This document shows positions 32,558 to 48,816 of a stretch of 64,000 bases of DNA, piece by piece. Made by a program: the position numbers and the translations under genes. Position 1 is the first letter of the stretch; every line of letters starts with the position of its first letter. The DNA is from Escherichia coli. Its GTDB lineage: Bacteria > Pseudomonadota > Gammaproteobacteria > Enterobacterales > Enterobacteriaceae. The DNA is taken from the NCBI RefSeq assembly GCF_030013595.1, contig NZ_CP122770.1, one strand, 5' to 3'. The notes under the pieces are model-generated. The model was not told where the DNA came from, ran no database searches, and saw only the letters and a program-made list of their open reading frames with translations.

Positions 32558-33337
32558 TTATGGAATTCTTTTGAGCATAGACACCGCATCGGACTCAGGC
32601 ATCGAAAACTGCACCCGGTGCCGTGCAGCCACATCCAGTGCAAACACCTTCGTGTAGACCTCCGTTGAGCTGATGGACTTATGCCCCATCAGACTCTGCA
32701 GGACCTTCAGCGGTATACCGGCATACAGCATATGCATCGCATAGGAATGGCGGAACGTATGTGGCGTGACCGGGACAGAGAACGTCACACCATCAGCGGC
32801 AGCGGCGGCAACCGCCTCCCCAATCCAGGTCCTGACCGTTCTGTCCGTCACTTCCCAGATCCGCGCTTTCTCTGTCCTGCCTGTTCGTTTATTACGCCGT
32901 TCCATGGGGATTTTCAGTGTGGCCACCATCGTCTGCAGCTGGCTGACGTACCAGGCGTCGGAGAGCGGAACCAGCCGGTGAGTCTGCTGACCGGCGGGCA
33001 TTCTTCCTGCCGTCCTGGCGGCTTTTTCGGTCCGCTGCTTCAGAGTGGCCAGCTGCACAAACGGATACGGAGGCGTGAGCGAAAAATCCCCCCGCGTCAG
33101 CGCCAGTGCTTCATTAATGCGCGCACCGGTGTTCCACAGTGTGGCCAGCAGCATCTTGCGGCGCAGATCCGGGACGTAATGGAGCAGGGCGCTCACTTCA
33201 GGGGCCAGCAGGTATTTTGGCAGTTCATCATGAACCATCGACATCTGGCGGAGTGCCAGCGCTGCCGGATAATCGATGGCAACAGGAAGCTGAGCGGCAT
33301 CCCGGGCATGGTGGATCGGTGCCGGCAGGTGCTGCAT
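32558..33337 (-). CDS. Tyrosine site-specific recombinase (XerD/ResD-like, likely multimer resolvase)
   Basis: C-terminal HTFRHSYAMHM...LMGH...EVYT catalytic motif block; start inferred at MQHLP. Confidence 0.8.
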   Translation of the reverse strand: MQHLPAPIHHARDAAQLPVAIDYPAALALRQMSMVHDELPKYLLAPEVSALLHYVPDLRRKMLLATLWNTGARINEALALTRGDFSLTPPYPFVQLATLKQRTEKAARTAGRMPAGQQTHRLVPLSDAWYVSQLQTMVATLKIPMERRNKRTGRTEKARIWEVTDRTVRTWIGEAVAAAAADGVTFSVPVTPHTFRHSYAMHMLYAGIPLKVLQSLMGHKSISSTEVYTKVFALDVAARHRVQFSMPESDAVSMLKRIP

Positions 33338-33338
33338 A

Positions 33339-33752
33339 TCAGTGTTCACTCCACGGGGAAACGTCGGGCAGTTTTTCCACAACCCGGTACTTTCCCGGAT
33401 AACGGAGCTGGTTACCGCCACGCGTCCAGACGGTGACAACAAAACCCCCGCCCTGGTTGTTTTCGGGGAGCAGGCGATCGCACTGCTCACTCAGCATGTG
33501 GATCACGAACGGCGCATCGCTGCCGTCTTCAAATACCAGTTCCAGCGCATCGCGGCCATCCAGCGTTCCCTTACTGATGATGACGTACTCAGCCCCCCGC
33601 ATCTCCCTGAGTAAATGTTTTGCCGCATCCGGGACAAGCAGCCTGGCTGCGCCGGCATTCCAGCTTAGGTAGACATATCCGGCCTGCGCCTGTACAGACT
33701 GCCAGTAATCCGTTCCGGCGACAGCCTGACCTTCATTCTCAATAAAAAACAT
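33339..33752 (-). CDS. Hypothetical protein upstream of recombinase (137 aa from MFFIENEG)
   Basis: ORF abutting recombinase start; no family recognised. Confidence 0.4.
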   Translation of the reverse strand: MFFIENEGQAVAGTDYWQSVQAQAGYVYLSWNAGAARLLVPDAAKHLLREMRGAEYVIISKGTLDGRDALELVFEDGSDAPFVIHMLSEQCDRLLPENNQGGGFVVTVWTRGGNQLRYPGKYRVVEKLPDVSPWSEH

Positions 33753-38373: not shown

Positions 38374-38709
38374 ATGAACAGAAAATATTATTTTAATAAT
38401 ATGTGGTGGGGATGGGTGACGGGGGGATATATGCTGTATATGTCATGGGATTATGATTTTAAATACAGATTACTGTTCTGGTGTATTTCTCTCTGCGGAA
38501 TGGTTTTGTATCCGGTTGCAAAATGGTATATTGAAGATACAGCTCTGAAATTTACCCGGCCTGATTTCTGGAACAGCGGTTTTTTTGCTGATACACCTGG
38601 GAAAATGGGATTGCTTGCTGTTTATACGGGTACTGTTTTCATATTATCTCTTCCGTTAAGTATGATATATATTCTTTCTGTTATTATAAAAAGGCTGTCT
38701 GTAAGATAG
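38374..38709 (+). CDS. imm: Colicin Ia immunity protein (inner-membrane)
   Basis: 111 aa, Trp-rich hydrophobic; convergent with colicin gene as in colicin Ia/Ib loci. Confidence 0.8.
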   Translation: MNRKYYFNNMWWGWVTGGYMLYMSWDYDFKYRLLFWCISLCGMVLYPVAKWYIEDTALKFTRPDFWNSGFFADTPGKMGLLAVYTGTVFILSLPLSMIYILSVIIKRLSVR

Positions 38710-38730
38710 ACAGCCTGTCTTATATTTTAT

Positions 38731-40611
38731 TTAAATACCCCAGAACTTATTCGCTTTTTCCACAAGCGATTCATCAATCAGCGCACCGGTGACAGCCATC
38801 AGTAAACCATACCCGATAATGCCTAAAGCGCTTCCGGTAAGAATACTGAAGACCAGTGCAACAAGAGCCGTTGCGGCATTGCCTGCTATAATGGCTTCTG
38901 TTTTAACAAAAAGAGGACGCCAGTTCTCTGTCCGGACAGCCTTACCAAACTCAGTGATCCAGTCAGCAAGACTTGTAAATTTTCCTGCATATCCCAGTCC
39001 CCGACTGAATCTGTTCAGATTAGACGATATATCAGACAGCTTCACAGACTCAAGGGCTGCGGCAATCGCTGCACGATCTTTTGCATTAATTTTTTTGTTA
39101 ATGTCAGCCCGGTACTTTTCATACGTTTTTAATGCCTCTTCAACATTACGTATTTTCTTCCCTTTAGCCTGCCCGGCCATCTCTCTGGCTAACTGCTCAG
39201 CTTTTGCACCATATTTTTCTGAAACTGATTTCAGGAACTCTGTTGTGAAATTAATTGCGTCTTTCGTTGCCTTCAGTTCATCCTGTTTTCTTTTCTCTTC
39301 CGCTATCTTCTGATTGATGCCGGCAAGCTGGTTACGGATATTCTCTTTTTCCTTCAACAGGGCATTAAGAGCGTCATTTGCATGCTTTTGCTCATTTGTT
39401 CTGGCACTGAGGTTATTTCTCGCCGAATTTACCGCAGATTCAGCAGAGGTGATTTTATTTCTGGCATCAAGCAATCGTTGCCGTAACTTATCCCATTCAG
39501 CAACTTCAGCATTATAAATTTTCTTGTCACCTTCCACATCCTCTGTCACCACCGGATTCCGGTCATTCAGAATATTGCGTTTATAATCCAGACCGGAATG
39601 GGTCAGAAGATAATTCAGGTTTGCACGGTTATCGATGACTGCGCTGGTTGTGATTTTTATCGTACCGGCAAATCTCGGATCACCGCTCACAACAATAGAA
39701 TGATTTGTTGATGAACGCCCCGGGAATTTTTCAGGGGAAACTATCGTTTTGCCGTCAGGCGTGTTTTTCTGTTGCGTCAGCTGTTGTTCAGCTCTGGTTA
39801 ATGCATTACGGGCCGTGTTAAGCGATTCCGTCACTGAACTGAGTTTATTCCGGGCCTCTGAAATGGCCCTGTCATTCCGTGTCTGCTGCCCGAGCAGACG
39901 GGCCTGTTGTGCATCAAGAACGGCAAGGGCTGCCCCGCCATTTTTTTCCAGCTCTGACAACCGCGTGTCCAGAATACCTTTTCTGCGCTCGTATTCAGCA
40001 AGCATATCAGCGGCCTTCTTGTCTGCGTTCTGCGCATCCTTCTGCCGTTTTTCAGCCTGTTCGATTAACGACCTGGCCTCCCGGGGAGATATACGAAGAG
40101 AATCAGCATCAGCAAACAGCATCCGGCTCTCTGTATGCAGCCGGAGGGCATCATATCCGGCGATTTCAGTACGGAATCCGTATTCTCTCAGCTCTGCCTG
40201 CAGGAGTCTGAACTCCTGTCGTGTAATATCAGCGGCATCTGCGTTTCCGGCACGGAGTGTTTTCAGTGTGTTTTCATCTTTTTCCCTTGCAGCAATCGCC
40301 GCAGAGAGGCGTTTTCCGGCTTCAGTACGCTTATTCTCATTCTCTTTCTGCTGCGCGCTGAGCGTGTTTTTGTACGCTGTGATTTCCTTGTCCCTTTTTT
40401 CGATATCACTTCGGGTTGGGGAATCATCAACCCACTCGTTTCCGCCCCAGATGGTTTTGTTCCCGAAGGAACTCCATGCAGGCGGGGTACCATGAAAGAC
40501 ATCGACACGTGGAGGGTTTACATAAATATCAACGGCCATAATTTCATGGCCATCTGAATCATACCCCAGCGATTCTGCACCGGGATTTGTAATACGTACA
40601 GGGTCAGACAT
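38731..40611 (-). CDS. cia: Colicin Ia (pore-forming; Ia/Ib family)
   Basis: 626 aa from MSDPVRITNPGAESLGYDSDGHEIMAVDIY; C-terminal hydrophobic hairpin; Ia versus Ib call from immunity length and C-terminus, from recall. Confidence 0.8.
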   Translation of the reverse strand: MSDPVRITNPGAESLGYDSDGHEIMAVDIYVNPPRVDVFHGTPPAWSSFGNKTIWGGNEWVDDSPTRSDIEKRDKEITAYKNTLSAQQKENENKRTEAGKRLSAAIAAREKDENTLKTLRAGNADAADITRQEFRLLQAELREYGFRTEIAGYDALRLHTESRMLFADADSLRISPREARSLIEQAEKRQKDAQNADKKAADMLAEYERRKGILDTRLSELEKNGGAALAVLDAQQARLLGQQTRNDRAISEARNKLSSVTESLNTARNALTRAEQQLTQQKNTPDGKTIVSPEKFPGRSSTNHSIVVSGDPRFAGTIKITTSAVIDNRANLNYLLTHSGLDYKRNILNDRNPVVTEDVEGDKKIYNAEVAEWDKLRQRLLDARNKITSAESAVNSARNNLSARTNEQKHANDALNALLKEKENIRNQLAGINQKIAEEKRKQDELKATKDAINFTTEFLKSVSEKYGAKAEQLAREMAGQAKGKKIRNVEEALKTYEKYRADINKKINAKDRAAIAAALESVKLSDISSNLNRFSRGLGYAGKFTSLADWITEFGKAVRTENWRPLFVKTEAIIAGNAATALVALVFSILTGSALGIIGYGLLMAVTGALIDESLVEKANKFWGI

Positions 40612-40650
40612 TCGGTATCTCCTTCATCCTCTGAGGAAAACAAATGAATT

Positions 40651-40682
40651 AACTGCTTACGCATATGGATACATATACAGTA
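40651..40682 (-). promoter_or_regulatory. Putative overlapping LexA boxes and promoter of colicin gene
   Basis: Minus strand TACTGTATATGTATCCATATGCGTAAGCAGTT downstream of TTGACA-like hexamer; halves degenerate. Confidence 0.5.
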
Positions 40683-40889
40683 TTAATTTATTAAGGAGAA
40701 AATGGCATGTCAAGATTTGATGATAGTGATTATCATTAACATGAAGTGATGTTACACCGTTCAGAAAGCCTGCTGACGCTGTGGCAGCATCACAGTCTGG
40801 GTATTCTCTGGTGCAATACAAAAACCGGACTTTCCCGTAACAACAGACAATGTTACGGGAAAAGTTACAGAACTGAGCCACAAAATATC

Positions 40890-42305
40890 TCAGTACCTGA
40901 GATGCATAAAAACACCGTACATATGTTTCTTAAAAGGGGGATGATCGTTATCCAGCCATTTCGGTGGATCGGTATGCAGAACACCAATCTGCTTCATGCC
41001 GGTATGCTGCCTGGATTTTCTCGCGCAGTAATCACTGTCTTCATATCCCATCGTTTCGATGACCACTCTGGCCGTCTTTCCGTCAGGAGCCCTTGCTGTG
41101 ACAATGAAATCCGGCAGTACATATTTCTTTTCACCATTAACATAAACTTCTGTATCAAACAGGGGCCTTTCCAGACTTAATTCCGGCGTACCTGGCTTTC
41201 TTTTAAGCCAGCTGGCCACATTCAGAAGAGCAGTGAGCGTGTTTCGTTCCAGTTTGCTGTCCACAGGCACCGGACATGTCAGTTGATAAAGAGCATGAGC
41301 ATACCCTTCACTGCAGATGATTCTGCCATCGGCACTCCGGCAAAAAGCAAGAATAACCCAGTAAGGGGGACGTATTCCGCCCTGCGCTTCACCATTAATA
41401 CTGATCCCCCGCACAGGTCTGATGACCTGAATATTACCGTTCGCCCAGTGAATTTCCACAGCATCACGACAGATGTGCTGCGCCATAAAAATCTGAAAGA
41501 ACATATGCTTTCTTCTGGCAGGCCAGTGTCGTTCTGAATTCTCCAGCGTTTCCATTAACCGCTCCTGAGACCTTTCAGACATTCCTGGCCGGAAATGGAT
41601 AATTTCAGATAAGGCTCTTCCCCGAATATACTCCTGCTGTAGTGTAACCTGCCGTATGGCATCAAGACACTCACGATAATTAGTCCGGATACGGGGATTA
41701 GCCAGGGAATCCAGTTTATTCAGCCCTGCATCTTCAATAAGCGACAGGAGTAAACGGCCAAGGCGCGGACGTTTCTTGCGAACGGAGGAGCGCTCACCAT
41801 TATGGTAAGCAGAGCGGGCCTGCAGTCTGATAACAGAATTACTGTCATCAGGTGGTAAAAAGTTTCTGTAATTTATACGGGTGCTAACGGGATGCCGGCT
41901 TGCTCCGAAGGATGTTTCCTCTTCATTTCCGGATAACTGACGATACATGGGGCATTCAGGTGCATGCTCATGATTAAAACTGGACAGATAAAGAGTACCC
42001 GTATTGTTTTTAAGAGCAGCAAAATTCATGGCCGGCGAATCTCCCGGAATACAGTCACACTGTAACCATGCATCATACTCACGCATTTCCCGGAGAAGAG
42101 CATTGGCCAGGTTATGTTGTGCCATGGTTGCTGGCCTTTTCAGTCCACAGACCGTCTTTACTGCAGTCTCTTCCTCACTGCTAAGCTCCCGAATCACTTT
42201 GCCCCGGGGATTCTTCTTTACAAGTATCATTGGCATAATGAAAGCACTCCTTATGTACATGCTTAAACAGTAAGTAAAATATACAAAGAACCCCCCATGA
42301 AACAA
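40890..42305 (-). CDS. Large conserved hypothetical protein (possibly DUF1173-like); start likely internal (MPMILVKK)
   Basis: 471-aa ORF; C-terminal YVLPDFIVT...VVIETMGYEDSDY block. Confidence 0.5.
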   Translation of the reverse strand: MFHGGFFVYFTYCLSMYIRSAFIMPMILVKKNPRGKVIRELSSEEETAVKTVCGLKRPATMAQHNLANALLREMREYDAWLQCDCIPGDSPAMNFAALKNNTGTLYLSSFNHEHAPECPMYRQLSGNEEETSFGASRHPVSTRINYRNFLPPDDSNSVIRLQARSAYHNGERSSVRKKRPRLGRLLLSLIEDAGLNKLDSLANPRIRTNYRECLDAIRQVTLQQEYIRGRALSEIIHFRPGMSERSQERLMETLENSERHWPARRKHMFFQIFMAQHICRDAVEIHWANGNIQVIRPVRGISINGEAQGGIRPPYWVILAFCRSADGRIICSEGYAHALYQLTCPVPVDSKLERNTLTALLNVASWLKRKPGTPELSLERPLFDTEVYVNGEKKYVLPDFIVTARAPDGKTARVVIETMGYEDSDYCARKSRQHTGMKQIGVLHTDPPKWLDNDHPPFKKHMYGVFMHLRY

Positions 42306-42589
42306 AGGCAGAGATGAACTGTGCGCCCCGATATCTTCTTCTGATATCCTTTCAAATGAATTGTTTTTATTTATATCATGACAACATTAAAGTGAGAGAA
42401 TATATCAACCATGTTTCTGTCAGGGTTCAGTAGAATATCAATTCGACTGTCACGCCATAACTGTAACTACCTCGAGTATAAATATTCAGAGAATGGACTT
42501 ATTAGCCATGAAAAATCACCTGATGGGAAATTTACTAATTTATGGATTGTGATATTATTAAAGAGTAAAACCAGCCAGCCGAGGTATTT

Positions 42590-43183
42590 ATGGGAAAAAA
42601 TCAGGAAGAAAGGAAAACTCCCGTCATTGTGGTGAAAAAACGTCGTACTTTTTCGCCACCGTCCTTATCCGAAAAAACAGATATTATCGCACCTGTATTT
42701 ACTGAACAGACGGCAGAATCAGCCCCCGCCGGAATAAATTCATCTGCCGTCGAAACACATATCCCCGAAGCGCCAGCCAGGAAGAAGAAAAAGAAAAGAC
42801 ACCGTTTTCCACGTCCCTCCCACTGGACCCGTGAGTATACTCACGAGTGCGTGGAAAAAATAAAGGCCCTGTTTCCTCATCTTCGTGCTGAAGGTGGTGG
42901 ATTTATTCCCCTGAAAATTGGCATAAGCAATGATATTTCGGCATTTCTGGCAGAAAGCCCGGATACAGAACTGTCCATGGACGAATGGTTCTGTGCAGTG
43001 TCCTGCATCACCTCCCGCCGCGTATATCTGCAGCGGACCTCTGTCGCCGGCGTCCCTCGTTATGGGCTGGATGGTCATCCCGATGGGCAGGTCTCAGAAA
43101 CTGAAGCACAGAGTGCTGTTCAAAGACTGGCGATAATAGAACAACGGTGGCTCAGGATGAAGGAACGGCAGACTGAGCAATAA
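42590..43183 (+). CDS. ProQ/FinO-domain RNA-binding protein
   Basis: 197 aa; basic N-terminus, FinO-like central region; assignment from recall. Confidence 0.55.
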   Translation: MGKNQEERKTPVIVVKKRRTFSPPSLSEKTDIIAPVFTEQTAESAPAGINSSAVETHIPEAPARKKKKKRHRFPRPSHWTREYTHECVEKIKALFPHLRAEGGGFIPLKIGISNDISAFLAESPDTELSMDEWFCAVSCITSRRVYLQRTSVAGVPRYGLDGHPDGQVSETEAQSAVQRLAIIEQRWLRMKERQTEQ

Positions 43184-43464
43184 ACATTTCAGATAACATC
43201 ATGACATTGTGTATCAGAGTCTGCTTACAGACTCATGGATGCCACCAAAGGCTCATCAGATGTAAGGCAGAAGCGACGTAACTGCCTTTTGAAAGGAAAA
43301 AAGCGACCGCAAGGATGCAATGGATATCTGCCGCATACTGAAATAAAGTAACAAAAAAATCACCACAATCACGGGGGCTTCCTTCCTGTACTCAGGCCAT
43401 ACCCCCCGCACGTATAAATTTCTCAATCAACAATACAATAAAACTGTGAATAATATCATCATGA

Positions 43465-44331
43465 TTAACGCATAATTACCCGTGATTCTTTCCTGGTAAC
43501 GTAAGTACAGTTATCCGGAACCTCCTCCATAATAAAAGACATGGCTCCAATTTTTACATTACTGCCTATTTTTACGTTAAGCCCGATAATACACGTATGG
43601 GCACCGATATCGACATTATCACCAATAACGATATAATTCTCTCTGCTGTCAGATTCCTTTTCGCCAATGGTCGTATTCTGCCGTATAATCACATTCTCAC
43701 CGATTTTTACATTTCCGTGAATGACGACGCCTGAATGGTGGGGCAGCACGAGGCCTTTACCAATCTGCGCCCCCAGACCAATATCACATCCATACTTTGC
43801 CATAAGCGCATTTTTTATCTTGATCGCACATTTTCGTTGTTTTTTATTCCCCGATATATACATTTCATTAGCCAGGCGCCACCACAGAAGAAAACCTCTC
43901 TGCCTCTGCATACCGTTCCTGATAAGCCGGTGAAAAACAAACTTATCCCGCATGATAACTTCTGCTTTCCAGTATTCCAGAAGATGACGTTTTTTTCCTG
44001 AAAATAAAAACGTGCCAATATGGAAATAAGAAATCGGATTTTTTATCAACATACGCAAATTTTTAGAAAACAATGAATACAGATGTATTTTATATACACA
44101 GATAAAACCGCGCAACAGACATAAATATGACAGTAGCAATGAAAAAGCAGAGAGTGTGGGTGATACAGAAAAGTAACTGTCAGACATTAAATCTGATGCA
44201 TCGATAAACAGACGCCCCAGCAGATGCACCTGTAATGCAACGATTTTGCCGTGTCTGCTACAGAAGTAATACACAAATTTCCGGGGATTCTGCCTTAGCA
44301 TTTTGATATATTCAGATACGGTAAATCTCAC
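43465..44331 (-). CDS. Hexapeptide-repeat acyltransferase (CysE/WcaB-like) with hydrophobic N-terminal region
   Basis: C-terminal LbH repeats (GVVIHGNVKIGENVIIRQN...IGDNVDIGAH...NVKIGSNVKIGAMS); AT-rich. Confidence 0.75.
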   Translation of the reverse strand: MRFTVSEYIKMLRQNPRKFVYYFCSRHGKIVALQVHLLGRLFIDASDLMSDSYFSVSPTLSAFSLLLSYLCLLRGFICVYKIHLYSLFSKNLRMLIKNPISYFHIGTFLFSGKKRHLLEYWKAEVIMRDKFVFHRLIRNGMQRQRGFLLWWRLANEMYISGNKKQRKCAIKIKNALMAKYGCDIGLGAQIGKGLVLPHHSGVVIHGNVKIGENVIIRQNTTIGEKESDSRENYIVIGDNVDIGAHTCIIGLNVKIGSNVKIGAMSFIMEEVPDNCTYVTRKESRVIMR

Positions 44332-44351
44332 TTTAGATGGACTAAGGACTT

Positions 44352-44693
44352 ATGATATTTACAAAATTTCAATCTCTGACCCACAAGATAGATACAATGA
44401 TTATTCATGATATTAAACGGGAGATGCCATTGAAATACGGGTTATACAGGGTGGCCAAATGGTTTGCCTGGCTCGCCCACACAGGAATTTTTTGTACCTT
44501 TATTATATATATAGGGTTTTCCATCATCACTCAGCACGCCGGCCAGGAACTACCGGAGACGTTTAAACATGGATTCGCCTTGACTTTCTGTTCATTTGCA
44601 ACAGCAGCTCTGGTCAGCCAGTGGATCGGAGGCGGATTGCATAGCAAACTGGAAGAAAGAATTCGGATGAAGTGGCAGAACCACGCTCACTGA
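44352..44693 (+). CDS. Possible small membrane protein (start uncertain)
   Basis: 113-aa ORF with two hydrophobic segments; AT-rich. Confidence 0.3.
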   Translation: MIFTKFQSLTHKIDTMIIHDIKREMPLKYGLYRVAKWFAWLAHTGIFCTFIIYIGFSIITQHAGQELPETFKHGFALTFCSFATAALVSQWIGGGLHSKLEERIRMKWQNHAH

Positions 44694-44728
44694 CAGGATC
44701 ACCCGGTCAGTGCACAGAGGGCGGGTGG

Positions 44729-44800
44729 CGAAGACTCCGGTGACTGCTCCCCGCCCGCATTGGGCGAGGATTCTCGGCGGTTCTTCGCTGACTGCACCAT
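44729..44800. repeat. Third copy of hairpin motif with flanks matching both ends of the tnpB locus
   Basis: gtgactgctccccgcccgcattgggcgaggattctcggcggttcttcgctga: left part matches 13701-13717, right part matches 15007-15042. Confidence 0.6.
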
Positions 44801-44888
44801 ACCTCCCAGACAAGACTGTTCGGAATATATCGCTCTTACTGGGGGAGCAGTAAACTAAAAATGAAAAGTATTATTCCTGACTGGAATT

Positions 44889-45170
44889 TTATGGCCACTT
44901 CTGTGCGGTATGCAACACGCGCAGGACATACACTTTTCCCCACTGGCTGTCGACCTCATAAACCAGAACAAAATGGGGGTGAATAACCAGTTCCCGGGTT
45001 CCTTCCACACGACCGTTGCGACCTTTATACGGCTGCCCGGCCAGGCTGCTGGCTGAATAACCAATCCGTTCGTCCAGTTCAATGGCGGCCATCAGGTTCT
45101 GCTCCGCAATGTACTCACGAATGCGCTTCCTGTCCTGGCTGGCCAGCATGGTCCAGAATATCTCCATCAT
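44889..45170 (-). CDS. RelE/ParE-family toxin
   Basis: 93-aa ORF overlapping upstream antitoxin ORF by 4 nt. Confidence 0.7.
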   Translation of the reverse strand: MMEIFWTMLASQDRKRIREYIAEQNLMAAIELDERIGYSASSLAGQPYKGRNGRVEGTRELVIHPHFVLVYEVDSQWGKVYVLRVLHTAQKWP

Positions 45171-45436
45171 TTATCGGAAACCTTCCTGCTCATTTCATCC
45201 CGCCATGCAGCGGCAGAAGATTCGACCATGTCATGGGGAAGCACATCGCCGCGCTCGAGTTGCTGACGTCCTGCCGCAACCTGGTCACGGAACCAGGTAT
45301 TATGCTGCCGTTCAACGGTCTGGCGCATAAAATCCCGAATTAACTGAGAGCCATTACGGTCCATGCTTTTTGCAGCGGCCATAAAAGCATCCTTCAGTTC
45401 AGCGTCGATTCTTAAACTCATATTAACCTGTGCCAT
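45167..45436 (-). CDS. RelB/DinJ-family antitoxin
   Basis: 89 aa, RHH-like N-terminus (MAQVNMSLRIDAELKDAFMAAAK). Confidence 0.7.
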   Translation of the reverse strand: MAQVNMSLRIDAELKDAFMAAAKSMDRNGSQLIRDFMRQTVERQHNTWFRDQVAAGRQQLERGDVLPHDMVESSAAAWRDEMSRKVSDK

Positions 45437-45799
45437 TTATCACCTCGTCATTACTACGTATATACACAGTATATAACGATTCAGATATCGTCACCAGGAT
45501 ATGCCGCGCCAGCGGCATGGAAGGCGGCACGCTGTGGTTACATGTGATACCGGAGTAAAACCGCCGAAGCCCGGCGTCAGCCGGTACTGATTGATAGATT
45601 TCACCTTACCCATCCCCAGCCCTGCTAAGCCATACCCGCTTTCAGCCATGAGACAGTTTCTGTGCGCGGTCGGAGTGGTCCCGACGAGGGTTTACCCGAA
45701 GTCGGGGCGTATCTCCGCGTTAGCGGGCCGTGAGGGCCGCTTACGAGCGTGTACTGAGGACTTCCAGCCAGAAGACTGGCAGCGATGACAATGTAGTTA

Positions 45800-46340
45800 C
45801 AACATTCATAATTAAAAGCGATGTTGTTCCCGCCCTTCGGGCGGGGGCGGCCTCGCTTTTCAGTTATGAGGGGTGGGCACGGTGCTGCGTTTGTGTGGTG
45901 TTTTTTATTCCTGATGTTTTCGCGGTGGTTTCAGAACGGTGAGGTTCGGGGCCCGCGCGTTAGCGTGGGAGGTGCTTTTAGATTCTGAGCGGCGCGGCCT
46001 TGGCCGCTGCAAGCGAAGGCCTCTTTGTGTTTGTTCACGGTGGTTTCAGAGATAAAGACTTTCCCTGCGGCGAAGCAACGCAGGGGATTAAATAATGGGG
46101 TTAAGACTATATTGCAGGTTTGCTGTTTCAGGTTTGCAGCTTCTTAAAGTTTTTTGTTTGCGGATTTATGTGGATAACTGAAACAACGTGGCCACGTTCT
46201 GATGACTGATGCGTGGTTTTATGGGCAGATATGCCCCTCTGAGGGGATTTAAGGTGATTACTGCGGATTTTGGGCTGAGCGGAACCAGCGCCGAAAGCCC
46301 CGGAGGGGCTGGTGATGATTCAGTGCTGAGGGAATGGTGC
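45800..46340. other. Candidate replication origin region downstream of repZ
   Basis: Position as in IncI/IncB replicons; GC hairpins cccgcccttcgggcggg and cggcgcggccttggccgctg; no coding signal. Confidence 0.4.
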
Positions 46341-46343
46341 TGT

Positions 46344-47375
46344 CTAGTGCGGCGGTGGGGCAGCCAGCGTCAGTTCAAGCTGACGCAACTCCCTGATGGC
46401 CAGTCGCTTCAGATGGTCATCGGAACAAAAATAGGCTTCATCCGGCGGCAGACGCTTCCTGAGATATTCTGCCATCTCATGAATCTGCTGGTCGGCAGGC
46501 AGTTTCTTCAGGCGTCTGGCGCGCTTACTGGCTGCTGCTTTCGCACGACGGTGTTTCAGCGCATCCTGACTGCGCTGCAGATACCAGCGTTTTCTGGCCG
46601 CATGTACGGAGATATCTTCATCCTCACGCAGAACACCTTCCCGAATGAGCTGCTGGCGGATTTCACTTTCACGCAGTCGTTTCTGCTGCTGTTCGTGAAG
46701 TTTTACCATGTCGACGCCCAGCATCTGCCAGCCTGCCGGTGTTATCCAGACGTAACGAGGCAGACGCTGGCGGGTTTCACGGTCCCACAGGGTTTCATCT
46801 GAAACACCCAGCACACCAAAACGTACCTGTTCGGCCAGCAAACGGGAAAGGCGGGAGACCGTCACTTCCAGTTCCGGAATAACCTTCCCCTTGCTGTCTT
46901 TCGGGCTGATTTCTCTGGCCAGACGGGAAACACTCATGCCTACGGTATGTGTGCCCGCATCACTGAAGCTGACCAGAACCGGCCAGACGGCATCGAGGAG
47001 GCGTTGTTTTTCCGGACGGAAAGCATATTTGCGACCGGCATACGTTCGTTTCTGCACGTAAAAAGGATGCAGAGACATGTGCATGCGCAGGCTCTGCTCG
47101 CCGGTCACCGGGTCCTTTTTCACCAGACGGTTGTAGGCGTGCCCGAGCTGCCCGCTCAGCGCCTTATAGCGCTCAGGACGATACCAGGACGGATTTTCGC
47201 ATTTGGGTTTGGTGGAGTGCTCACCACGACGACGCTTCGTGCGCTTCCTTTCCGGTTCAACCAGGAAAGTGGTCGCCCTTCCCGCTTCATAGTCTTCCCA
47301 GAAACGGATCTGCTCTTCGGGTGCTAACTGACTCCAGTGTACTGCGTTATATGGAGTATTCTTCAGACCTGCCAC
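46344..47375 (-). CDS. repZ: RepZ replication initiator (IncI1/IncB RepA family)
   Basis: 343 aa from GTG at 47375 lying within end of repY; track ORF extends 15 codons upstream. Confidence 0.85.
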   Translation of the reverse strand: MAGLKNTPYNAVHWSQLAPEEQIRFWEDYEAGRATTFLVEPERKRTKRRRGEHSTKPKCENPSWYRPERYKALSGQLGHAYNRLVKKDPVTGEQSLRMHMSLHPFYVQKRTYAGRKYAFRPEKQRLLDAVWPVLVSFSDAGTHTVGMSVSRLAREISPKDSKGKVIPELEVTVSRLSRLLAEQVRFGVLGVSDETLWDRETRQRLPRYVWITPAGWQMLGVDMVKLHEQQQKRLRESEIRQQLIREGVLREDEDISVHAARKRWYLQRSQDALKHRRAKAAASKRARRLKKLPADQQIHEMAEYLRKRLPPDEAYFCSDDHLKRLAIRELRQLELTLAAPPPH

Positions 47376-47452
47376 AAGCTGTCGCTTATGGCGGAGCGAT
47401 TGTGCCGTGTATTTATACACTGCACAGGGTTGAATCTCTGGTACGGTTTCAT
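47363..47452 (-). CDS. repY: RepY leader peptide (29 codons) coupled to repZ translation
   Basis: ATG at 47452, stop at 47363 overlapping repZ start; MKPYQRFNPVQCINTRHNRSAISDSLWQV. Confidence 0.65.
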   Translation of the reverse strand: MKPYQRFNPVQCINTRHNRSAISDSLWQV

Positions 47453-47973: not shown

Positions 47974-48527
47974 CGTAAATAGAATAATTCTTAGATGATA
48001 AAACCATTTGTTACACAACCCGCCAATTGTGTAACAACAGCCTCTACAAGAGCATATTTGTTCATATGTTCGTCAGAACTGCGGATTGTCTGGACGAGGG
48101 TCAGACACCGTTTCGTGCATATGGACCAGCATGTTCGAACGCCACAAAGCAGAAGCATCATGCCTGGATCGCTTCGGCGCGGAGCGTTAAGTTTTGACGC
48201 TTTTTTGTATGTTTTTTAAGCTGTTAGTTGACTCGGTGCGTTATACTAAGTACCCTTTACTGGTCACAGGCAAAACTGTGATCGGGCGTAGGAACCCGCG
48301 TAGTCATCGTCGGCGCAGAAGTTAATTTCTTCATTTGGCGTCGTTTTTTGCCATACCATAAAGACAGGAACTTGTATTTCTTGTCGTCATCTATGGTAGC
48401 TCAGGCGGGGCAGGCATTAGCCTGGCCGGTTTCCGATGACGCCGGTATTCCTACCCCCGTCTGGGCTATCACCAATGAGCGTAGGAACTCGGTGATAGCG
48501 TTTTTAGTTGTCATCGGAGACCTTTGC

Positions 48528-48816
48528 TATGTCACCTCAACTGATACAGAAACTCCCGGCCATCACTCTGTTGGAAGGCATGTTTCCCGAGCTATCAACA
48601 AACCAGCTTAAAGTCTGCGTTTTTTACGCAATGGGTGTTCCTTACGACGCCATTGCTCAGAACTGTCGGCTTTCTCCCGAAACGGTACGAACCTACCTGA
48701 AGCGAAGCCTGAAGAATTTAAATCTGGAAGGATATGATGCACTTCGCTCTGCTGTGCTGATGCGAACTTTCGTTTTCATGATTAGCAATACAGCTAAAGA
48801 AAACGAAAAAATGTGA
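48528..48816 (+). CDS. traA: TraA-like LuxR/GerE-type HTH regulator
   Basis: ATG at 48528 with GGAGA RBS; C-terminal HTH (LSTNQLKVCVFYAMGVPYDAIAQNCRLSPETVRTYLKRSLKNL). Confidence 0.55.

What the first reader, a model, noticed from the sequence alone, without database searches (positions are those of the whole stretch)
43184..44810. AT-rich islet with a hexapeptide acyltransferase carrying an atypical hydrophobic N-terminal region
The 288-aa protein has a clear C-terminal left-handed beta-helix but an N-terminal ~150 residues with a probable TM-like stretch, in a markedly AT-rich segment between the FinO-like gene and relBE, next to a small putative membrane protein and the hairpin element at 44729-44800. 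Composition and context suggest acquired cargo; such enzymes can modify surface polysaccharide, antibiotics or toxins.
Basis: partly seen in the sequence, partly recalled or inferred. Interest (0 to 1): 0.5.

Follow-up and report, generated by a model that had tools for sequence, protein, structure and literature searches.

The report
Accessory plasmid acetyltransferase, over-extended ORF
The AT-rich segment is real accessory cargo on an IncI-type plasmid, but its gene is an ordinary 195-residue soluble CysE-like acetyltransferase already annotated on many plasmids, and the 'hydrophobic N-terminus' is untranslated leader read through from an upstream GTG.

Summary
The sequence features are real. 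The segment is AT-rich (GC 0.40 against 0.51 for the window), lies between the FinO-like gene and yacAB (relBE), and holds a hexapeptide-repeat ORF, a small hydrophobic ORF and a hairpin.

The 288-aa protein is not real. None of the 101 aligned homologues starts upstream of Met94. The upstream ORF length varies among close relatives (288, 243, 216, 195 aa). The upstream DNA carries indels and shows no third-codon-position bias. RefSeq aa. The TM-like stretch (residues 59-82) lies entirely in this non-coding leader.

The 195-aa protein folds confidently (pLDDT 95.5) into five helices plus a left-handed beta-helix, and CysE is its closest solved fold. The catalytic His and acidic residue are conserved. 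The CysE serine-binding residues, the CysK-binding tail and the family score cut-offs are not met.

It is accessory, not backbone. ColIb-P9 carries four other genes at this position. The CDS is in 173 plasmid records, against 1,442 with the adjacent FinO-like gene.

Relatives (PHROG 2154, function unknown) sit beside tail-fibre assembly genes in 69 of 80 viral contigs. My best guess, which is inferred, is acetylation of a surface-glycan precursor that changes phage receptors. Interest is low.

The parts
43219..44889 (.). Variable (accessory) segment of 1,671 bp. It replaces the yacC-yafA block (exonuclease plus three hypotheticals, about 2.7 kb) of ColIb-P9-type IncI1 plasmids.
   Evidence: blastn against a typical IncI1 plasmid: homology ends at 43218 and resumes at 44890. 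Gene tables of L002 and ColIb-P9.
43465..44052 (-). Acetyltransferase gene, 195 aa. Soluble CysE-like hexapeptide-repeat (left-handed beta-helix) enzyme; RefSeq WP_024189984 'serine acetyltransferase'; PHROG 2154.
   Evidence: PGAP call in a 100% identical plasmid. Homologue N-termini align at this Met. Third-position substitution bias and no indels. AF2 pLDDT 95.5. CysE is the top fold match. PHROG 2154, E = 2.1e-63.
44053..44331 (-). Non-coding 5' leader and promoter region. Read in frame from GTG 44331 it gives the spurious 93-residue N-terminal extension, including the 'TM-like' residues 59-82.
   Evidence: ORF length differs in relatives: 195 (L004), 216 (L003), 243 (L015). Large unaligned block (about 42-76 columns, depending on the sequence pair) and small gaps in the DNA alignment. 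Substitutions 5/4/3 and 8/11/20 by codon position, with 7-10 gap columns. Hydropathy.
44104..44178 (.). 75-bp stretch shared at 93.5% with most IncI1 plasmids. Both of its edges are recombination breakpoints in different lineages. It is probably a remnant of the acetyltransferase upstream region.
   Evidence: It is the only part of the segment found in about 500 plasmids.
44352..44693 (+). Small ORF with a hydrophobic segment, 113 aa from ATG 44352 (preceded by AAGGA) or 98 aa from ATG 44397 (PGAP, WP_001419651). Orphan; coding status uncertain.
   Evidence: Only close relatives exist, all in enterobacterial plasmids. The ORF stays open without indels, but substitutions are not third-position biased: 6/9/6 and 15/7/13.
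44725..44792 (.). Imperfect GC-rich hairpin just 3' of yacB (minus strand) and 3' of the small ORF (plus strand). Its core (44747-44801) is repeated downstream of psiA at 14998-15052.
   Evidence: Folding z-scores -2.9 and -2.5. Repeat copies. No terminator-like site was found by the scan.
42590..43183 (+). Left flank: FinO/ProQ-family gene (yafB), backbone.
   Evidence: Present in 1,442 plasmid records.
44889..45436 (-). Right flank: yacB (RelE-type toxin) and yacA (RelB-type antitoxin), backbone.

Best explanation
The locus is a 1.67-kb accessory segment in the variable repZ-proximal region of an IncI-complex plasmid. Its main gene encodes a 195-residue cytoplasmic acetyl-CoA-dependent acetyltransferase. 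The protein has five N-terminal helices and a left-handed beta-helix, in effect a shortened CysE. It keeps the catalytic His and acidic residue but lacks CysE's serine-binding residues and CysK-binding tail. The 288-aa ORF with a 'transmembrane' N-terminus is a reading artefact: the open frame happens to continue through the AT-rich 5' leader up to a GTG. The gene belongs to a mobile single-gene family (PHROG 2154) that rides on plasmids and, far more often, on temperate phages, usually right next to the tail-fibre assembly gene. The most likely function is inferred, not shown: O-acetylation of a sugar acceptor in a surface-glycan pathway (O-antigen, core, capsule or colanic-acid type). That would change the cell surface seen by phages or other agents, as known prophage acetyltransferases do. 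Sub-confidences: gene model and fold about 0.9; accessory status about 0.9; acceptor is not serine about 0.7; surface-glycan or phage-receptor role about 0.35.
For: Gene model: all 101 aligned homologues start at residues 1-32 of the 195-aa form and none starts upstream; median length is 191. Apart from two long gene calls on near-identical DNA (P0001, P0002), hits cover no more than 68% of the 288-aa query. In relatives the maximal ORF is 195, 216 or 243 aa. Substitutions by codon position in the CDS are 9/4/27, 2/0/11 and 2/0/7 with no gaps. In the extension they are 8/11/20, 5/4/3 and 11/9/12 with 7-13 gap columns. PGAP annotates 195 aa. Fold: AF2 pLDDT 95.5, pTM 0.89, helices at 6-87 followed by beta-helix turns. 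The top 50 Foldseek PDB hits are all CysE (TM about 0.7, 22-28% identity). phmmer against PDB finds CysE at E = 6e-17. Catalysis: His105 is kept in 101 of 102 sequences and Asp/Glu90 in 102 of 102. Not CysE: NCBIfam scores are below the cut-offs (CysE 75.6 against 210.65; PRK11132 59.3 against 397; EpsC 86.8 against 150; WcaB 56 against 195). No SATase_N domain in Pfam. At the CysE 'DH' and 'RH' positions the protein has Pro-His and Asn-Tyr, and both the Pro and the Asn-Tyr positions vary across the family. Accessory status. Phage linkage: PHROG 2154 at 2.1e-63. Prophage contexts. Phage genomes. 69 of 80 IMG/VR loci, and 11 of 15 clusters at 90% identity, have a tfa homologue within 1.5 kb. 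In Photorhabdus the gene sits with LPS-type glycosyltransferase and sulfatase-family genes beside tail fibres. Literature: this IncI1 region is known to hold phage-inhibition genes (PMC8004404). Prophage acetyltransferases have been associated with capsule type (PMC13123978).
Against: No member of this subfamily has a tested function. Papers that mention it say its role is unknown (PMC9603915; PMC6456863). There is no PADLOC match. The plasmid copy has no tail-fibre gene nearby. The position next to tfa may only reflect the usual 'moron' site at the end of late operons. No glycan-pathway partner genes accompany the plasmid copy. No Shine-Dalgarno sequence is evident before ATG 44052, and the promoter scan found no consensus site upstream, so expression is unproven. 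The assignment of CysE substrate-binding residues rests on my knowledge of the E. coli and H. influenzae structures, not on a test here.
Confidence: 0.6

Rival explanations
1. One reading: a 288-aa acyltransferase with an N-terminal membrane anchor, translated from GTG 44331.
For: The ORF is open for 288 codons. Residues 59-82 have a Kyte-Doolittle mean above 1.6. Some automatic gene callers produced 278- and 269-aa versions (P0001, P0002).
Against: No homologue has the extension. ORF length varies among close relatives. The extension has indels and no codon-position bias. The 195-aa form folds completely on its own. PGAP aa.
Confidence: 0.03
2. A true serine O-acetyltransferase (a plasmid or phage CysE paralogue, possibly insensitive to feedback) that raises O-acetylserine and cysteine supply.
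For: RefSeq names it 'serine acetyltransferase'. CysE is the closest solved fold and sequence. The catalytic dyad is kept.
Against: Scores are far below the CysE equivalog cut-offs. The residues aligned to the CysE serine-binding Asp and Arg-His are Pro and Asn-Tyr and are not conserved in the family. There is no C-terminal Ile tail (Ile in 4 of 102 sequences). Instead the family has its own invariant Gln125-Asn126 motif.
Confidence: 0.12
3. A xenobiotic, antibiotic or toxin-modifying acetyltransferase (of the Vat, CatB or NodL/LacA/Maa type).
For: It belongs to the hexapeptide superfamily. It sits on resistance-associated plasmids. There are weak LacA and Maa hits (22.6 bits; PDB E of 1e-5 to 6e-4).
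Against: None of the 25 NCBIfam families shown is a Vat or CatB family. The nearest relatives are CysE-, EpsC- and WcaB-type. PLSDB lists no predicted resistance gene under the match. The tail-fibre linkage in phages is hard to explain this way.
Confidence: 0.06
4. An intracellular single-gene anti-phage or anti-competitor defence that acetylates a phage component or a metabolite rather than a surface glycan.
For: It lies in the IncI1 repZ-rfsF variable region, which holds ibfA and pifA. In phages it sits at cargo sites beside tfa or int. It is a single gene and is widely mobile.
Against: No PADLOC hit. It is not mentioned in the P2/P4 hotspot or functional-selection papers. No sensor or effector partner is present.
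Confidence: 0.1
5. A passenger gene with no current function on the plasmid, i.e. a remnant of an older insertion.
For: Truncated copies exist (L018/L019 keep only the first 163 nt; partial hits). No Shine-Dalgarno or consensus promoter was found.
Against: The ORF is intact in at least 173 plasmid records. Third-position substitutions outnumber the others (27 of 40 against L004) and there are no indels.
Confidence: 0.08

Closest known systems
CysE serine O-acetyltransferase (e.g. PDB 6WYE/7RA4, 1T3D, 1SSQ)
   Same: Left-handed beta-helix with a preceding helical domain. Best structural match (TM about 0.7) and best sequence match in PDB. The catalytic His and the acidic partner align.
   Different: About 80 residues shorter: it lacks the first part of the N-domain and the C-terminal tail. 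It is below the TIGR01172 and PRK11132 cut-offs. The serine-binding Asp and Arg-His positions are not kept. It is carried by plasmids and phages, not in a cys context.
Short CysE-like polysaccharide acetyltransferases: EpsC (NF041874) and WcaB (TIGR04016, colanic acid)
   Same: Similar size class (the EpsC and WcaB models are 146-168 positions; this protein is 195 aa). EpsC is the best NCBIfam hit (E = 1.3e-24, model positions 30-158 of 168). Some RefSeq records even name close alleles 'colanic acid biosynthesis acetyltransferase'.
   Different: Scores are well below both cut-offs (86.8 against 150; 56 against 195). It is not in an EPS or wca cluster. It has its own conserved motifs: WWRLANE, RQNTTIG, GAMSF.
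NeuO, the K1 polysialic-acid O-acetyltransferase of prophage CUS-3 (from my own knowledge, not tested here)
   Same: A hexapeptide-repeat acetyltransferase carried by a temperate phage beside its receptor-binding tail gene, which modifies the surface glycan. This is the functional analogy I propose.
   Different: NeuO belongs to the LacA/Maa/NodL branch and did not appear among PDB sequence hits at E <= 0.001. It is phase-variable through 5' heptanucleotide repeats; I saw no such repeats in this gene when reading the sequence (no tandem-repeat search was run).
PHROG 2154 (phage protein family of unknown function)
   Same: Full-length match, E = 2.1e-63, residues 20-193 against model positions 5-179 of 185. 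This is the family it actually belongs to.
   Different: The plasmid clade is only 44-61% identical to the phage members retrieved and is not next to tail genes.

Membership tests
Hexapeptide-repeat (left-handed beta-helix) acyltransferase superfamily | Tandem hexapeptide repeats detectable by profile | tested here: met
   Pfam Hexapep PF00132, i-E = 5.2e-05, with further weaker repeats.
Hexapeptide-repeat (left-handed beta-helix) acyltransferase superfamily | Left-handed beta-helix fold | tested here: met
   AF2 model with pLDDT 95.5 and short beta-strands from about residue 90 to 185. The top 50 Foldseek PDB hits listed are all CysE, which is a left-handed beta-helix enzyme.
Hexapeptide-repeat (left-handed beta-helix) acyltransferase superfamily | Conserved catalytic histidine (general base) | tested here: met
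   His105 in 101 of 102 family members; it aligns with the His of the CysE 'DH' motif.
CysE serine O-acetyltransferase | Score at or above the curated equivalog cut-off | tested here: not met
   TIGR01172: 75.6 against 210.65. NF008349: 59.3 against 397.
CysE serine O-acetyltransferase | N-terminal SATase_N helical domain | tested here: not met
   No such Pfam hit. Only five helices (residues 6-87) are present; alignments to CysE structures span 161-208 columns of chains 232-309 residues long.
CysE serine O-acetyltransferase | Serine-binding residues (Asp before the catalytic His; Arg-His in the loop; E. coli Asp157, Arg192, His193, numbering from my knowledge) | tested here: not met
   By alignment with the N. 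gonorrhoeae and soybean enzymes the positions are Pro104 and Asn139-Tyr140, and they vary across the family.
CysE serine O-acetyltransferase | C-terminal tail ending in Ile that binds CysK | tested here: not met
   The protein ends ...RVIMR. The last residue is Ile in only 4 of 102 homologues.
CysE serine O-acetyltransferase | Serine O-acetyltransferase activity or cysE complementation | not testable with these tools
   Needs an enzyme assay or genetics.
WcaB / EpsC polysaccharide acetyltransferases | Score at or above the curated cut-off | tested here: not met
   EpsC: 86.8 against 150. WcaB: 56.1-56.3 against about 195.
WcaB / EpsC polysaccharide acetyltransferases | Location in an exopolysaccharide gene cluster | tested here: not met
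   The neighbours are a FinO-like gene, a small ORF and yacAB. Homologues lie in prophages and plasmids.
Vat / xenobiotic acetyltransferases | Profile match to a Vat, CatB or XAT family | tested here: not met
   None among the 25 NCBIfam families shown, of 28 found. The PDB hits are CysE, LacA, Maa and GlmU only.
PHROG 2154 | Full-length significant profile match | tested here: met
   E = 2.1e-63, 214 bits, model positions 5-179 of 185.
Known anti-phage defence systems (PADLOC-DB 2.0) | Match to any defence-protein model | tested here: not met
   No family matched at E <= 1 for the acetyltransferase, the small ORF or YagA.
   The hydrophobic stretch at residues 59-82 lies in the non-conserved, indel-bearing leader.

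The most novel reading that the evidence does not exclude
PHROG 2154 enzymes are a self-contained, horizontally mobile 'receptor-editing' module. On this reading, a mini-CysE has been retargeted from serine to a sugar or lipid-linked glycan. Temperate phages would carry it next to their tail-fibre cassette to acetylate the matching receptor in the lysogen. IncI, IncK and IncF plasmids would have captured it into their phage-inhibition variable region as a single-gene phage-exclusion or serotype-modifying determinant.
Probability: 0.25. Interest if true: 0.5.

Novelty: already known. Interest (0 to 1): 0.17.

Why it matters
As found, it matters little. The gene is already annotated (WP_024189984) on more than 170 plasmids and belongs to an existing phage protein family, and the unusual feature that drew attention is an ORF-calling artefact. 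Two points have practical value. First, some automatic gene callers still emit 243- to 278-aa versions with a false membrane anchor. Second, the RefSeq names 'serine acetyltransferase' and 'colanic acid biosynthesis acetyltransferase' are probably both wrong for this subfamily. The family's consistent position beside tail-fibre assembly genes in several phage types, together with its capture by plasmids, gives a cheap and testable hypothesis. If these enzymes acetylate a phage receptor, they would be a widespread and overlooked determinant of phage host range and of serotype or phage-type conversion in E. coli and Salmonella.

Tried and rejected
1. Transmembrane N-terminus: rejected (see the gene model).
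2. True CysE: rejected on family cut-offs, substrate residues and the missing tail.
3. Known defence system: no PADLOC hit, and no mention in the P2/P4 hotspot or E. coli functional-selection papers.
4. Literature on the exact proteins: no paper cites WP_024189984, WP_000905839, WP_062893098 or WP_001419651. A search for 'IncI1' plus 'serine acetyltransferase' gave only unrelated cysE mentions and the P1-like JL22 note.
5. Transposon or IS-type cassette: no flanking direct or terminal inverted repeats of note. The boundaries look like homologous-recombination mosaics.
6. Two-gene system with the small ORF: rejected as obligatory. L003 and L004 carry the acetyltransferase alone, L018/L019 carry the small ORF with only a 5' stump of the acetyltransferase, and no phage locus checked has the small ORF.
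7. Promoter and terminator: the consensus scan found nothing upstream of ATG 44052 and no intrinsic terminator. A hand-picked TTGCGC-17-TAAAAT at about 44086-44114(-) is only 3/6 + 5/6 and is not claimed.
8. Rfam: no RNA family in 43-45 kb.
9. Remnant tail-fibre genes beside the plasmid copy: none.
Full report
WHAT IS THERE. The window is an IncI-complex plasmid. It is 99.97% identical over window 40001-47420 (100% over the finding's 1,627 bp) to Salmonella plasmid NZ_CP030234, which is typed IncI-gamma/K1, MOBP, MPF_I. The local gene order is as follows.
- yagA, 40890-42305(-)
- FinO/ProQ-like yafB, 42590-43183(+)
- a hexapeptide-repeat ORF, 43465-44331(-)
- a small hydrophobic ORF, 44352/44397-44693(+)
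- yacB/yacA relBE-type toxin-antitoxin, 44889-45436(-)
- repZ, 46344-47420(-), with its PK-repZ pseudoknot

The AT-richness is real. GC of 43219-44400 is 0.398 against 0.507 for the window, which places it in the lowest 1% of 1.2-kb windows. Two other places in the window, near 30.8 and 51 kb, are as low.

THE 288-AA PROTEIN IS AN ARTEFACT. The 288-codon ORF is simply the longest open frame, from a GTG at 44331. Five lines of evidence place the real start at ATG 44052, giving 195 aa.
- Homologue lengths. A search of 5.8 billion proteins gave 444 relatives. Apart from two long gene calls on near-identical DNA, they are about 160-220 aa and cover no more than 68% of the 288-aa query.
- Homologue starts. 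In a 102-sequence alignment no homologue begins upstream of Met94 of the ORF. Their starts fall at residues 1-32 of the 195-aa form, and the median length is 191.
- ORF length in relatives. The homologous plasmid genes have maximal ORFs of exactly 195 aa (IncFIB plasmid L004, about 87-88% nt identity), 216 aa (IncK2/Z plasmid L003) and 243 aa (L015). The extension is therefore not maintained.
- Substitution pattern. The upstream DNA alignment shows a large unaligned block (about 42-76 columns, depending on the sequence pair) and other gaps. By codon position, substitutions in the CDS are 9/4/27, 2/0/11 and 2/0/7 with no gaps. In the extension they are 8/11/20, 5/4/3 and 11/9/12 with 7-13 gap columns.
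- Annotation. PGAP annotates 195 aa in every record inspected.

The only strongly hydrophobic stretch, residues 59-82 of the ORF, lies wholly in this leader.

WHAT KIND OF ENZYME. The 195-aa protein, modelled with its family alignment, gives pLDDT 95.5 and pTM 0.89. It has five helices (residues 6-87) followed by a left-handed beta-helix.

All of the top 50 Foldseek PDB hits are serine acetyltransferases (TM about 0.7, 22-28% identity). phmmer against PDB agrees, finding CysE at E = 6e-17.

The catalytic His (His105, 101 of 102 sequences) and the acidic partner (Asp/Glu90, 102 of 102) are conserved. It is nevertheless not a CysE by the tests I could run.
- It scores 75.6 against a 210.65 cut-off for TIGR01172, and 59.3 against 397 for PRK11132.
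- Pfam finds no SATase_N domain.
- The residues aligned to CysE's substrate-binding Asp (before the His) and Arg-His are Pro104 and Asn139-Tyr140, and they vary in the family. The role of those CysE residues is from my knowledge of the E. coli and H. influenzae structures.
- There is no C-terminal Ile tail.

EpsC (86.8 against 150) and WcaB (56 against 195) also fail. No Vat or XAT family appears among the 25 families shown. The family has its own invariant motifs: WWRLANE, RQNTTIG and GAMSF. The one full-length membership that holds is PHROG 2154, of unknown function (E = 2.1e-63).

ACCESSORY, NOT BACKBONE. Compared with a typical IncI1 plasmid and with the reference ColIb-P9, homology stops at 43218 and resumes at 44890. 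Those plasmids carry a 3'-5' exonuclease gene and three hypotheticals in between. They share only 75 bp (44104-44178, 93.5%) with this segment, and that stretch lies in the acetyltransferase's upstream region.

Both edges of the 75 bp are breakpoints in different lineages. L003 matches the window to its left and ColIb-P9-type sequence to its right. This fits mosaicism by homologous recombination. No IS-like repeats flank the segment.

The counts are as follows.
- The whole 1,627 bp is in 84 plasmid records.
- The CDS is in 173 records.
- The neighbouring FinO-like gene is in 1,442 records.
- Among 5,426 complete E. coli genomes, 158 carry the CDS, and 177 of 178 places are on plasmids.

The hosts are IncI-gamma/K1, IncK2/Z, IncFIB (near tsh) and perC-carrying plasmids. 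A published comparison of IncI1 plasmids describes this repZ-to-rfsF region as the variable part that separates 'Delta' from 'Col' plasmids and holds the phage-inhibition genes ibfA and pifA (PMC8004404).

THE FAMILY LIVES MAINLY ON PHAGES. Relatives at 44-61% identity are cargo genes in the following settings.
- Prophages with P2-type tail modules, between the gpU-type gene and the tail-fibre assembly gene.
- Lambda-like prophages, after J, stf and tfa.
- Other myovirus prophages, at the prophage end.
- Sequenced P1-like, P2-like, Citrobacter and Hafnia phages.

IMG/VR holds 142 viral contigs with a relative. Of the best 80, 69 have a tfa homologue within 1.5 kb, almost always just downstream and convergent. 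After de-replication at 90% identity, 11 of 15 clusters show this.

In Photorhabdus the gene lies with a family-25 glycosyltransferase gene and a sulfatase-family gene beside tail fibres. Papers that noticed such genes call the role unknown (PMC9603915) or list them as 'fitness' cargo (PMC6456863). The plasmid copy has no tail gene remnants beside it.

HOW IT MOST LIKELY WORKS.
- Shown: a soluble CysE-fold acetyltransferase with an intact catalytic dyad, under purifying selection, mobile as a single gene.
- Inferred: it uses acetyl-CoA, as the whole superfamily does.
- Inferred: it acts on an acceptor other than serine, because the substrate residues differ.
- Inferred: given its tie to tail-fibre cassettes and to a plasmid region that collects phage-inhibition genes, it probably O-acetylates a sugar in a surface-glycan pathway and so alters a phage receptor or antigen. 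This would be analogous to prophage NeuO, a comparison from my own knowledge.

I put this last step at about 0.35. The rivals are a true SAT (0.12), an intracellular defence (0.10), a functionless passenger (0.08), a xenobiotic acetyltransferase (0.06) and the 288-aa membrane protein (0.03).

THE NEIGHBOURS IN THE SEGMENT. The small ORF has only close relatives (78-100% identity), all in enterobacterial plasmids, and no family match. It stays open without indels in three lineages. Its substitutions are spread evenly over codon positions (6/9/6 and 15/7/13), so its coding status is uncertain. ATG 44352 has an AAGGA three bases upstream, and PGAP prefers ATG 44397. It is not an obligatory partner of the acetyltransferase.

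The hairpin at 44725-44792 folds better than shuffles (z = -2.9 and -2.5). It has no T-run, and the scan calls no terminator. Its core recurs at 87% identity just 3' of psiA in this window and in many IncI plasmids. A 3'-end stem-loop for the minus-strand genes yacB and psiA is plausible but untested.

VERDICT. The gene is already annotated and belongs to an existing, functionally uncharacterised family. Interest is low (0.17). The only lead worth keeping is the family's tail-fibre linkage.

Noticed in passing
window 19706-22004: A group II intron. Rfam finds D1-D4-7 at 19706-19855 and domain V/VI at 21928-22004, with a 555-aa ORF (20256-21923) between them. It lies among leading-region-type genes (psiA at 15048-15767).
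   Followed up: no
window 48389-48476 (+): Full-length match to the C4 antisense RNA family (RF01695, 77.5 bits against a gathering score of 45), known from P1/P7 immunity. It lies about 1 kb beyond repZ on an IncI plasmid, and small ORFs follow at 48508-48816 and 49237-49791.
   Followed up: no
window 14998-15052 and 13700-13735, against 44747-44801: The GC-rich stem-loop core of the hairpin next to yacB is a dispersed repeat. An 87% copy lies just 3' of psiA and a weaker one lies at 13.7 kb. The psiA copy is seen in many IncI1 plasmids.
   Followed up: partly
window 44104-44178: A 75-bp island conserved at 93.5% in about 500 IncI plasmids that otherwise have unrelated DNA on both sides. Both edges are recombination breakpoints in different lineages. 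It may be a remnant of an ancestral acetyltransferase cassette or a preferred crossover site.
   Followed up: partly
window 32558-33490 (-) and locus L011 7577-8353: A tyrosine recombinase ORF in the window is 88% identical (245 aa aligned) to the 'phage integrase' next to a 67%-identical acetyltransferase homologue (P0010) on a Salmonella contig that also carries MazE/PIN and TacA/GNAT toxin-antitoxin modules. That contig is therefore probably a plasmid too.
   Followed up: no
window 38374-40611: Colicin Ia-type gene (38731-40611, -) with its immunity gene (38374-38709, +), as annotated in the identical plasmid. This makes the window a 'Col'-type IncI plasmid in the sense of PMC8004404.
   Followed up: no
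locus L024 (ColIb-P9) 12224-13225: ColIb-P9 carries a DUF4238-domain gene a few kb beyond the colicin locus. From memory, a DUF4238 protein is among the antiviral systems of P2/P4 hotspots. I did not check whether the window has a counterpart.
   Followed up: no
loci L018/L019 4546-5569: On urease-carrying E. coli and Salmonella contigs, the small ORF (78% aa identity) sits next to a truncated ParE/RelE-type gene and a 5' stump of the acetyltransferase. This is a decayed copy of the same module in a different setting.
   Followed up: partly
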